A stretch of DNA of 64,000 nucleotides from an uncultured Spirochaetota bacterium (GTDB lineage Bacteria; Spirochaetota; Brevinematia; Brevinematales; JAOACQ01), in NCBI GenBank assembly GCA_963783575.1, contig CAWAOD010000011.1, positions 160,001 through 224,000 on the forward strand, written 5' to 3'. This document shows positions 19,998 to 22,151 of this stretch, in pieces (the first letter of the stretch is position 1; every line of letters starts with the position of its first letter). The position numbers and the translations under genes are program-made. The notes below the pieces were generated by a model, which worked only from the letters and a program-made list of their open reading frames with translations, ran no database searches and was not told the DNA's origin.

Positions 19998-20534
19998 CTA
20001 TTGGTCAGCCTGCCGGACTTTTATCAAATTGGAGAGATTAAATCCGTTGCTTACCGCCGAATCCAGGAGAAATTGGTATACAGAATCATCGAGTTGTGGT
20101 GTTCGGCTGAGAATCCATAGATAATCCTTAGTGGCACTGGTGACCATTGCATACTGATAATTTGTGCGATCGAGCTCAAAAACAATATAATCACTGCCAA
20201 ACCATAGAAAAAAGCTTACAAAAAGTTTTGAGGGGAGTTTCTGATCCTGTACCCTCGCGTTTCCGTGCGCACTTGAACGCTTTTCGCTTTTAATACCTTC
20301 ATTCAGAACGTCCACCTGCCCGTTATTCTTTAAAGTATATGTGGCAGTGACATAATTAAGTCCTTCTTCGAAAGATGTGGGCAGCCTTGCGATCTCGTAC
20401 CATTTTCCCATATACTTATTCACATCAAAATTATCTACCGGTTTAATATCCGCAGTACTTTTGTTTTCAGCCGGCAGTGCGGAGAACGCGCAAAAAACCA
20501 TTGAAAACAATAAAACAGATTTTTTTGTGAACAT
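19998..20534 (-). CDS. blc: Bacterial lipocalin
   Basis: YMGKWYEIARLP, ATY, YLWILSRTP; signal peptide; AGGAG 5 nt before ATG 20534. Confidence 0.88.
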   Translation of the reverse strand: MFTKKSVLLFSMVFCAFSALPAENKSTADIKPVDNFDVNKYMGKWYEIARLPTSFEEGLNYVTATYTLKNNGQVDVLNEGIKSEKRSSAHGNARVQDQKLPSKLFVSFFLWFGSDYIVFELDRTNYQYAMVTSATKDYLWILSRTPQLDDSVYQFLLDSAVSNGFNLSNLIKVRQADQ

Positions 20535-20573
20535 ACATTCTCCTATGTAATTTGTCAAGTTTTATTTTAAGAT

Positions 20574-21573
20574 TCAAGCCTCAGATTTCAGATTCAACAA
20601 CTTATAATATACTTCCACAATAATTTTTCTCGCTACTGCAATGATCGCTTTTTGTTTTCCTCTTCTTGTTCGAATATTCTCATAAAACGATTTCATTTCT
20701 TTATCATATCTCACACGAACCCAGGCTGCTTGTACTATGACCCTTAAAAAAGCACCGTCTACTTTTCGTGTAATTTGACCATTTGTTCCTTTTCCGTCAC
20801 TTTCACTAACTCTTGGTGCTAATCCCATATATGATACAAATTTTTTTGAGGTACTAAAGCGGTCTATATTGCCTACCTTCGTTATGATGTATGCGCCGGT
20901 TGTTGTGCCTATTCCCGTTAATTCTTTAATCTCATTATATCCGGGTCTCTTTATGCTTAAGGCTTCTGTTTCTTTATCCAGTACCTTAATGTCTTCTTTG
21001 AGATTTTCTAACATAACATACATCTGGATTACGGCTCTCTTTATACTCTCAGGTATGTTTTGTTCTTTGACCCAGTTTGTGTTCTTTTCAAAATTGTTGA
21101 ACATTTTGTCTCCGGTTTTAATCCCCCAATACTCCATCATCGCTATTATCTTTGTCTTATAGCTTTTCTTATTGCTAACCATTTCTTCCCTCACAGATAA
21201 TAATCCTCTTATTTCAGCGTCTTCGTCGCTTCTTATCTGACAGGTACTTAGCTCTTCTTTTTCAAATCTTTGTAATATAATCGCCATTCTTTCTGCATCT
21301 TCCTTGTCTGTTTTCCATTAATCTTTTTAAATCAATAGTATTGAAAATAACCGCATCTTTTGCTTTATCTTTTAACCGTTTGATTAAATCCCATGTCCAG
21401 TTTGTCGATTCAATCCCGATTATCGTTTCTTTGTCAATCTCTTTCTCAAATTCCGCTAATTCTTTTTCATTTCTCTCATATTGCTTGATTGATTTTTTAC
21501 CGTTTTCTATAATAATGCAAACGGTAATTTGCTTTTTGTGGATATCAATTCCGATCCACTTTTTTGCGTCCAT
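20574..21573 (-). CDS. IS110-family DEDD recombinase/transposase (frameshift at ~21315)
   Basis: WIGIDIHK, IGIES, KTDKEDA (in the shifted frame), GIGTTTG, GLAPRVSESDG (catalytic Ser region), KAIIAVARK. Confidence 0.9.
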
Positions 21574-21601
21574 CGTTTTCCTCCCTAATTTATTTGGGAG
21601 G

Positions 21602-21795
21602 CCTGAATCTTTTAGTGGTATATTAATCCGGTTGAAAAATTACCATACTCCAATACGAGGTTTATCCTCAAAATGGTGGTTCGGACAAGGATTCGATCAT
21701 ACTCCTAACGGGGTTTATCCCCACAAATTGATTCGATCTTTGTCCTATTCAGAGTCCTCATCTATTTTGATGCGGGCTCTTTTATTTTTCAACCT
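21602..21795 (-). ncRNA. Predicted IS110 bridge-RNA-like ncRNA in the upstream non-coding end
   Basis: 5' hairpin (21752-21779) and two tandem, mutually similar hairpin/internal-loop modules (21683-21745, 21642-21680), enclosed by CTGAAT/ATTCAG; folded by eye only. Confidence 0.65.
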
Positions 21796-21814
21796 TTTTT
21801 ATCATACCACCTCC

Positions 21815-21976
21815 TTATGCTTTTTCAGGGAACCACGGGAAAAATAGCGGTTTACTTTTTTTGTATTCCTCGAAATCTGCCCTTCCGGCGTATTTCTTTT
21901 CCAGAAGCGGTACACCGGATACAAACAACAGGAGAAATGTTATGGTTAAAGGGCTTATAATTGATATCCATCCATA
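21815..21976 (-). pseudogene. C-terminal remnant of a DUF1295 (steroid 5-alpha-reductase-like) membrane protein
   Basis: [23 protein letters not shown]...FEEYKK...FFPWFP is the typical DUF1295 C-terminus; the N-terminal part is absent. Confidence 0.7.
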
Positions 21977-22151
21977 TCGGGAAGAAGCACATAAAATAAG
22001 TATAGACATATTCTTAAGATTCGTCAACAGAAAAAATTATTCCGGAAATAACTTTTCGCCATGAATGAGTAATAAAAGGCCGTCAAATTTCATTTTGACT
22101 TTTCCTATGATCAGGATTATAATTTTCATGGATATAAAGGAGGGCATTTAT

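What the first reader, a model, noticed from the sequence alone, without database searches (positions are those of the whole stretch)
21602..21795. Bridge-RNA-like ncRNA built from two near-duplicate loops that both carry GGAG
Seen (minus strand): a 5' hairpin, then module 1 GGACAAAGATCGAATCA-ATTTGT-GGGGATAAACCCC-GTTAGGAGTA-TGATCGAATCCTTGTCC and module 2 ACCACCA-TTTT-GAGGATAAACCTC-GTATTGGAGTA-TGGT. The modules are a ~33-nt imperfect direct repeat with period 54 (catactcc at 21644 and 21698), and the inner hairpin shows a compensatory change (GGGG/CCCC versus GAGG/CCTC). Candidate guides: module 1 CGTTAGGAG matches target CATAAGGAG at 7 of 9. Module 2 GTATTGGAG matches circle-junction donor ACATAGGAG at 6 of 9 plus two wobbles, and ACCACC is the exact complement of donor GGTGGT. 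Inference: a target loop followed by a donor loop as in IS621, possibly arising by loop duplication. The guides would read the strands in the opposite sense relative to the recombinase gene. The second target guide match (ATTT versus ATTC) is weak.
Basis: partly seen in the sequence, partly recalled or inferred. Interest (0 to 1): 0.8.

Follow-up and report, generated by a model that had tools for sequence, protein, structure and literature searches.

The report
Swapped-guide bridge RNA targeting ribosome-binding sites
This stretch likely encodes the guide ("bridge") RNA of an IS110 jumping gene whose six copies in this genome all sit in a ribosome-binding-site motif just before a host start codon; its predicted guides lie in the reverse order to the textbook IS621 case, so it is a variant of a system known since 2024, not a new kind.

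Summary
In detail: two look-alike hairpin modules, 54 nt apart, beyond chance (0 of 300 shuffles). They lie in the left end of a 1.28-kb IS110 element present in six copies. In relatives with other targets, a 7-nt word on the 3' side of loop 1 tracks the upstream flank plus a 2-nt core. The same word in loop 2 tracks the element's right end, and the 5' sides track the downstream side. So this is very likely a bridge RNA, target loop then donor loop, with IS1111-type guide order in an IS110-type position, shared with the ISLin1 branch. All 6 copies sit in AGGAG 6-8 nt before a long ORF (10.9% of such sites qualify), and the right end rebuilds the motif. Corrections: the ACCACC donor register is wrong (CCAU covaries); the window's target guide matches all sites only at AGGAG; recent loop duplication is unsupported. 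The window copy is decayed (11-bp deletion, stem mismatch). No RNA data exist. IS900 targets such sites, and this scan noted SD-targeting and swapped-guide IS110s before on other DNA. New variant of a known kind.

The parts
20540..21810 (-). IS110-family element, window copy (1271 bp counting one copy of the shared end motif; other uninterrupted copies 1282 bp)
   Evidence: six copies 98.8-100% identical, ends fixed by comparing flanks
21602..21795 (-). predicted bridge RNA region: closing stem 21794-21784 with 21640-21630, 5' hairpin, target loop, donor loop
   Evidence: transcription itself not shown
21752..21779 (-). 5' hairpin; the window copy alone carries a mismatch at 21755 (-11.8 against -19.0 kcal/mol)
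   Evidence: relative L038 and one contig of run X4 carry the pairing base
21683..21745 (-). module 1, predicted target-binding loop; inner hairpin 21722-21710
21702..21708 (-). 3' target guide (TTAGGAG), identical in sense to upstream flank plus core; 5-6 of 7 matches at the six sites, 7 of 7 in 9 of 18 families
21723..21731 (-). 5' side of target loop, predicted to pair with the downstream flank; no signal in the SD-targeting families, clear signal in the others
   Evidence: p 0.75, n 4; p 0.0014, n 11
21642..21680 (-). module 2, predicted donor-binding loop; outer helix 21680-21677 with 21645-21642; inner hairpin 21669-21657
21648..21654 (-). 3' donor guide (ATTGGAG); 6 of 7 to the right-end word here, 7 of 7 in 16 of 18 families
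21673..21676 (-). 5' donor guide (CCAU), predicted to pair with the first four bases of the element (21810-21807), one G-U wobble
21656..21714 (-). IS621-like scaffold marks: A at 21714 five bases before G at 21709, A at 21661 five bases before G at 21656
   Evidence: present in 14 of 16 target loops and 14 of 16 donor loops; IS621 A67/G72 and A150/G155 (PMC11208158)
21811..21817 (-). upstream target flank: split Shine-Dalgarno motif; inferred 2-nt core AG at 21812-21811 (CT on the other strand)
21801..21806 (-). -10 hexamer (5 of 6 consensus) in the left end
20553..20558 (-). -35 hexamer (6 of 6) in the right end; 17 bases from the -10 hexamer once the ends join in a circle
20540..20547 (-). 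right-end donor word (20546-20540) that rebuilds an AGGAG motif for the host gene; 4-bp inverted repeat 20547-20544 with 21806-21803
20574..21573 (-). IS110 recombinase gene, frameshifted in this copy by an 11-bp deletion near 21315; two other copies (C9, C16) encode the whole 336 aa
19998..20534 (-). host lipocalin (Blc-like) gene; start codon 6 bases after the core

Best explanation
[quoted passage not shown] Inferred cycle: the element circularises, which brings the right-end -35 and left-end -10 hexamers 17 bases apart and would transcribe the RNA from about 21795. In each loop a 7-nt 3' guide reads the upstream side plus a 2-nt core, and a short 5' guide reads the downstream side. This is IS621 geometry applied to the opposite DNA strand (core CT on the bottom strand). 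Insertion splits the host AGGAG, and the element's right end supplies a new one at the same distance from the start codon, so translation of the host gene would survive and host read-through could express the element. In this subclade RNA-encoded specificity seems to be little more than AGGAG in an A/T-rich setting; the rest of the bias to true gene starts is likely survival of harmless insertions or a protein preference. The window copy itself is probably inactive in cis.
For: Shown in sequence: six copies, all in AGGAG with ATG at +6 to +8 and an ORF of 151-474 aa, against 710 of 6538 genomic AGGAG sites (10.9%) or 386 of 1461 in A/T-rich context (26.4%). Relatives: ATG at +6 to +8 in 9 of 9 and 16 of 17 right junctions of two other families, against 2 of 24 in families with other guides. 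Covariation, 33 sites in 18 families called without using the RNA: upstream flank word 6.44 cognate against 5.36 non-cognate; right-end word 6.89 against 5.96 (both p 5e-5); complement of downstream flank 5.76 against 5.25 (p 2e-4). An upstream-pairing helix precedes the word in 17 of 18 target and 17 of 18 donor loops. 5' target window 3.9 against 2.55 of 9 (n 15, p 1e-4); 5' donor window 3.12 against 2.29 of 4 (n 16). The two bases after the target guide equal the first two element bases in 10 of 16 families each (p 0.044), as IS621 handshake pairing predicts for the flipped sense. Catalytic D10, E55, D93, D96 and S262 are invariant.
Against: No transcript, circle or binding was observed. 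The window's own target guide is among the three weakest of 18 (mean 5.6 of 7). The 5' target guide shows no signal in the four SD families tested (p 0.75). The 5' donor guide does not cover the core (match about 0.1 at both core positions), unlike IS621's 8-9-nt left guides. The handshake fails in all four members of the window's subclade. A free search over the whole left end did not separate the two guide orders (11.75 against 11.36) and found no signal for the 5' donor guide (p 0.11); opposite-sense controls were also slightly above chance (p 0.009 and 0.02). Families are related, so p values overstate. Structure covariation rests on 4 double changes in 27 pairs among 8 close sequences.
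Confidence: 0.85

Rival explanations
1. The RNA is a bridge RNA, but it only specifies AGGAG; the element inserts at any such site and the link to gene starts is purely survival of insertions that do no harm.
For: Only five guide letters match all six sites; the 5' target guide has no signal in SD families; start-codon spacing varies from +6 to +8, so a fixed guide cannot read the ATG; some junctions in relatives have only short ORFs (6 of 26 fail the ORF rule). Half-match recombination is reported for IS621 (10.64898/2026.08.31.748434, abstract).
Against: Guides track flank variants among close relatives (G205: 8 of 10 flanks match all 7 letters; G240 main family 3 of 5 and its variant L029 1 of 1, each with its own guide; read by eye). 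All six window-family sites have T at +5 (p 0.013 given an SD site).
Confidence: 0.4
2. Both modules are target loops made by a recent duplication, and the donor is read elsewhere, for example by the 7-nt complement of the left end at 21621-21615.
For: Significant self-repeat; SD families have more similar loops (scores 14-26) than the others (6-14); a perfect 7-nt complement of the left end lies 3' of module 2 in this family.
Against: Module 2's word equals the right end in 16 of 18 families and changes with it while targets differ; the 7-nt complement is not conserved (3-6 of 7 in the other 17 families); within-element loop similarity does not exceed between-element similarity in the subclade.
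Confidence: 0.05
3. The structure is a cis-acting 5' leader or DNA hairpin array that controls recombinase translation, and the GGAG words are decoy ribosome-binding sites, not guides.
For: Both strands fold equally well; the loops carry SD-like words.
Against: The same loop positions carry non-SD words that equal each element's own flank in 9 of 18 families at 7 of 7.
Confidence: 0.05

Closest known systems
IS621 bridge RNA and recombinase (Durrant 2024, PMC11208160; Hiraizumi 2024, PMC11208158)
   Same: RNA in the left end behind a junction promoter; 5' hairpin, target loop, donor loop; 2-nt core; 7-nt 3' guides; A five bases before a G ahead of the 3' guides; short inverted repeat; DEDD plus catalytic serine.
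   Different: [quoted passage not shown] The core reads CT on the strand opposite the gene. The 5' donor guide is 4-5 nt and misses the core. The protein is only distantly related (E 8e-7).
IS1111-group seekRNAs: ISEc11, ISKpn4, ISPa11, ISPst6 (Siddiquee 2024, PMC11187229)
   Same: Top-strand match lies 5' of the bottom-strand match; junction promoter; recombinase of about 340 aa.
   Different: Their RNA is usually downstream of the gene, with 7-17-bp subterminal repeats; here it is upstream, with a 4-bp repeat. The paper notes a few IS1111 members with an upstream region (ISMtsp17), untested for guides in what I read.
ISLin1 of Leptospira interrogans (named hit; locus L226)
   Same: Same branch (99/98), same end layout, same right-end word and loop scaffold; labelled family IS110 in the source data of PMC11187229.
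   Different: About 27-28% protein identity; its target guide is not SD-like, and 0 of 6 right junctions of its relative's family precede a start codon. I found no description of its RNA.
IS900 of Mycobacterium avium subsp. paratuberculosis (PMC8141618; Doran 1997 seen as a title only)
   Same: IS110-family element whose target motif is the reverse complement of an SD-spacer-ATG; rarely disrupts genes.
   Different: IS900 carries the hed frame on the strand opposite its transposase; here the recombinase gene runs in the host gene's sense and no frame crosses the element without stops.

Membership tests
IS110-family bridge RNA system (IS621 type) | DEDD RuvC plus Tnp recombinase with catalytic serine | tested here: met
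   PF01548 and PF02371, NF033542 above cut-off, invariant D10/E55/D93/D96/S262; met by the C9 and C16 copies, broken in the window copy
IS110-family bridge RNA system (IS621 type) | long non-coding left end and a sigma-70 promoter formed only across the joined ends | tested here: met
   237-nt left end; -35 (6/6) and -10 (5/6) 17 bases apart on the circle; promoter activity not tested
IS110-family bridge RNA system (IS621 type) | 5' hairpin plus two stem-loops with internal loops, conserved in orthologues | tested here: met
   (96.7% of cells paired; 4 of 27 pairs with double changes; 8 close sequences)
IS110-family bridge RNA system (IS621 type) | loop segments covary with target and donor | tested here: met
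   all four segments in the wider branch
IS110-family bridge RNA system (IS621 type) | second target guide active in this element | tested here: inconclusive
   SD families 4.0 against 4.07 of 9, p 0.75, n 4; low-complexity A/T flanks give little power
IS110-family bridge RNA system (IS621 type) | 5' side reads the left flank, 3' side the right flank (IS621 order) | tested here: not met
   left-flank word on the 3' side of the inner hairpin in 17 of 18 families
IS110-family bridge RNA system (IS621 type) | 2-nt core, preferably CT | tested here: inconclusive
   five letters are shared at both junctions in the window family, so the crossover cannot be placed from it; relatives share two letters (AG, CG or GG on the gene strand)
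IS110-family bridge RNA system (IS621 type) | handshake bases after the 3' guide | tested here: inconclusive
   10 of 16 families at each base, p 0.044; 0 of 4 in the window's subclade
IS110-family bridge RNA system (IS621 type) | RNA is expressed, binds the recombinase and is required for recombination | not testable with these tools
   no RNA run holds the stretch
IS1111 group (seekRNA type) | top-strand match 5' of bottom-strand match | tested here: met
   definition from PMC11187229
IS1111 group (seekRNA type) | long non-coding region downstream of the gene | tested here: not met
   34 bases after the stop codon, 237 before the start
IS1111 group (seekRNA type) | subterminal inverted repeats of 7-17 bp | tested here: not met
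   4 bp in the window element; 10 bp by eye in the G285 relative
IS1111 group (seekRNA type) | recombinase falls in the IS1111 clade | not tested
   no verified IS1111 reference was in my trees; ISLin1 is labelled IS110 in the source data of PMC11187229
IS900-type RBS-targeting elements | insertion between or within SD and start codon | tested here: met
   6 of 6
IS900-type RBS-targeting elements | open frame (hed) spanning the element on the strand opposite the transposase | tested here: not met
   all six frames of the intact copy hold 6 or more stops

The most novel reading that the evidence does not exclude
The ISLin1 branch is a third bridge-RNA architecture: left-end RNA, IS1111-type order, and 5' guides cut to 4-5 nt that leave the core unread on one strand. 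Its SD-targeting lineages arose when the target loop took on a copy of the donor loop's guide. The donor word is SD-like even in relatives that do not target SD sites, so overwriting the target guide with it (identical words in L039, L040 and G205) would at a stroke send the element to ribosome-binding sites that its own end rebuilds: a route from self-recognition to a genome-wide safe harbour.
Probability: 0.25. Interest if true: 0.65.

Novelty: new variant of a known kind. Interest (0 to 1): 0.45.

Why it matters
It supplies a natural set of reprogrammed bridge RNAs outside the IS621 branch. The set shows that guide order is not tied to which end carries the RNA, and that recombination may work with one long and one very short guide per loop. 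That bears on specificity rules for bridge-recombinase engineering. It also gives a testable RNA-level account of how an IS110 element can land at hundreds of gene starts without breaking translation, a habit known from IS900 before bridge RNAs were found. Intact natural copies in the same genome make the tests direct.

Tried and rejected
Rfam scan of 20300-22100 at E up to 1: no match. Sequencing runs: no RNA holder listed, which says nothing on expression. Contigs of four DNA runs showed no joint, so no circle junction was seen (contigs cannot show absence). No terminator-like site in 20400-22100. No uninterrupted copy of the target site was found in the genome for the five sites checked, four of them the genome's own. 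The metagenome and genome scans returned mostly distant IS110s (3 and 2 close loci of 80 each). The free joint guide search could not tell the two orders apart, so a structure-anchored test was used. The first automatic inner-hairpin call failed for several target loops; it was tightened and, by eye, still misplaces about five of 16. A first DNA alignment had one wrong coordinate (redone). Whether SD targeting is one origin or two, ancestral or derived, is unresolved: the base of the tree is open. A hed-like pass-through frame was rejected. The 7-nt left-end complement at 21621-21615 was rejected as a conserved guide. G205, G240, the Leptospira-like families, L011, L040, L124 and two own copies are outside the permutation tests because the RNA-blind junction rule did not call them; they are cited by eye only. 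No structure or complex prediction was run.

Full report
Observation. The region reads as described. The minus strand folds into a closing stem, a 5' hairpin and two stem-loops with internal loops (z -5.1, 0 of 200 shuffles). The repeat is real: period 54, 27 of 32 aligned columns, self-repeat score 44 against at most 28 in 300 shuffles. The plus strand folds equally well, so the strand is assigned from the promoter, the scaffold marks and the guide geometry below. Rfam has no match.

The element. The region is the left end of an IS110 element, window 20540-21810. The genome holds six copies, 98.8-100% identical. Two encode a whole 336-aa recombinase; the window copy and the C12 copy share an 11-bp deletion; two others have early stops. 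The intact protein passes NF033542, holds both Pfam domains and keeps D10, E55, D93, D96 and S262 in 28 of 28 close and 15 of 15 wider homologues. A perfect -35 hexamer in the right end and a 5-of-6 -10 hexamer in the left end come 17 bases apart when the ends join, as for IS621 (PMC11208158, legend). The window copy alone has a mismatch at 21755 that weakens the 5' hairpin. The closest named homologues are from Brevinematia and Brevinematales assemblies, so the host is probably a spirochaete of that group (inference).

The target is the ribosome-binding motif. All 6 copies sit in AGGAG, with ATG at +6 to +8 and an ORF of 151-474 aa in the element's own sense. Of 6538 genomic AGGAG sites, 710 meet that rule (10.9%); 386 of 1461 do in A/T-rich context (26.4%). 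The right end ends in the same motif, so the host gene keeps an SD at the old distance. Two distant families do the same: 9 of 9 and 16 of 17 distinct right junctions have the ATG (7 and 13 with an ORF of at least 80 aa or open to the locus end). In families with other guides, 2 of 24 do. One contig of run X3 adds another right junction with ATG at +7 (single contig).

Test of the guides. A tree of 115 representatives put the element in a branch of 30 with ISLin1 (99/98 with one outgroup row inside). Junctions were called by a rule blind to the RNA but designed after I had seen the end layout: consensus hexamers, shared core, short inverted repeat (225 loci, 164 distinct). A fixed filter kept 33 sites in 18 families. 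The upstream 7-nt flank word occurs in the cognate left end better than in non-cognate ones (6.44 against 5.36), as do the right-end word (6.89 against 5.96) and the complement of the downstream flank (5.76 against 5.25). Against my reading, the left-end complement was not significant (p 0.11), opposite-sense controls were mildly raised (p 0.009, 0.02), and the joint score did not separate the two orders. The best target hit lay 5' of the best donor hit in 16 of 18 families; the window family and L039 are ambiguous because both loops carry nearly the same word. Folding with the words held open put an upstream-pairing helix directly before them in 17 of 18 target and 17 of 18 donor loops (loop order was imposed in that call), so these words are on the 3' side. 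Two families (L024, L035) were then dropped as ambiguous. The 9-nt window before the inner hairpin matched the complement of core plus downstream flank (3.9 against 2.55, n 15, p 1e-4, best of three registers). The signal is all in non-SD families (p 0.0014); the four SD families give none (p 0.75). For the donor, one of seven registers stands out (3.12 against 2.29 of 4); it is CCAU at 21676-21673. Families are kin, so all p values overstate.

Geometry. [quoted passage not shown] Here the sides are exchanged, which is the order reported for IS1111 seekRNAs (PMC11187229). Read on the opposite strand, the fit to IS621 is close. The core becomes CT and the 3' guide covers seven positions from the core. 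A G stands two bases before it in 16 of 16 donor and 13 of 16 target loops, and an A stands five bases before that G in 28 of 32 loops, as with IS621's A67/G72 and A150/G155. The next two bases of the target loop equal the first two of the element in 10 of 16 families each (p 0.044), as handshake pairing would require. The window's subclade departs from this: no handshake (0 of 4), a target guide that all six sites match only at five letters, one mismatch in the donor guide, and 5' guides that miss the core.

Why the loops look alike. Part is scaffold common to both loops in every family and in IS621. Part is that target and donor are both SD-like here. SD families do have more similar scaffolds (14-26 against 6-14), and one (L012) is more like itself than like any other. 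Within the window's subclade, though, self-similarity (26, 20, 14, 18) does not exceed cross-similarity (18-32). An old copying event is possible; a recent one is not supported; the tree cannot give a direction.

Mechanism, shown and inferred. Shown: ends, copies, SD placement, rebuilt motif, conserved fold, covariation of all four loop segments in the branch. Inferred from IS621: circle, junction promoter, RNA, base pairing, strand exchange. Inferred further: that insertion spares translation, and that host read-through gives the low expression needed for excision, as reported for IS621 (PMC13626964, passages). Open: whether gene starts are chosen or merely survive.

Prior knowledge. Bridge and seek RNAs, the reversed order in IS1111, and IS900's SD-ATG target (PMC8141618) are published. 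I found no paper on a left-end RNA with this order, on ISLin1's RNA, or on a bridge-RNA guide spelling an SD (searches; open-access library only). What I saw of each paper: PMC11208160, outline, sections 6 and 12, part of the extended legends, passages and a supplement search in which file 3 was cut; PMC11208158, passages; PMC11187229, passages, part 1 of section 5, section 14 and supplement rows; PMC8141618, passages; Doran 1997, title in a reference list; 10.1101/2025.10.25.684509, part 1 of 5 and one passage; 10.1101/2025.05.14.653916, 10.64898/2026.08.14.744561, PMC13626964, PMC7823733 and 10.1101/2024.01.24.577089, passages; 10.64898/2026.10.21.760802, passages and sections 8 and 37; 10.64898/2026.08.31.748434, abstract. 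Figures and bioRxiv supplements were not visible and may already show this layout (86 bridge-RNA models in the last-named atlas preprint). Earlier notes of this scan report SD-targeting IS110s and a swapped-guide left-end RNA in other genomes; they are unchecked, came after my reading and are not counted as support.

Verdict. A real, well-supported bridge RNA of a decayed copy of an IS110 element that has two intact-looking copies; a new variant of a known kind; interest 0.45.

Noticed in passing
window 21755: Only the window copy has the base change that breaks the 5' hairpin stem; the other five copies, L038 and a contig of run X4 keep the pair.
   Followed up: yes
G000:C12:19690-22245 (between L006 and L007): A 2.5-kb insert splits the recombinase gene of the C12 copy; it has ORFs of about 520 and 255 aa that look like an IS21 istA/istB pair (label recalled, not tested). 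A contig of run X1 leaves the element at the same place (20761).
   Followed up: partly
L220, L222, L224 (G000 C13, C16, C5), plus a fragment in L317: A second IS110 family of the same branch in this genome, three copies, core CG, G-rich downstream target, with well-matching guides. One copy lies about 1 kb from the C16 copy of the first family.
   Followed up: partly
window 21621-21615: A perfect 7-nt complement of the first seven bases of the element lies 3' of the donor loop. It is not conserved beyond the window family; it could pair only in read-through transcripts.
   Followed up: yes
window 21805-21782: The -10 hexamer contains an ATG six bases after the split SD, opening a 7-codon frame that stops before the 5' hairpin; similar short frames occur in relatives. 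Possibly incidental.
   Followed up: no
window 20558-20530: The right-end -35 hexamer and the host bases around the start codon form a 10-of-12 promoter-like site; its start would fall inside the host ORF.
   Followed up: no
window 21815-22027: The gene upstream of the element is only the C-terminal 70 aa of a DUF1295 protein; its stop codon abuts the split SD.
   Followed up: partly
P0001 residues 262-263: The catalytic serine is followed by Asp in all 28 close homologues, not by Gly as in the usual SG motif.
   Followed up: no
L023, L027, L124 junctions: The two core letters differ between left and right junctions; in L023 and L027 the left one matches the RNA. L024 points the other way. Such cases could map the crossover.
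   Followed up: partly
G205 and G240 families (L017, L029, L251-L274): Only one base separates the core from the -10 hexamer, so the obvious -35 hexamer is 12 bases away; G240 holds two variants with different target guides that each match their own flank.
   Followed up: partly
L285, L287, L291, L295: Leptospira-like copies carry other repeats inserted inside the loops of the predicted RNA.
   Followed up: no
L126: Two right-end-like junctions in one locus, each before a start codon; a relative of L124.
   Followed up: no
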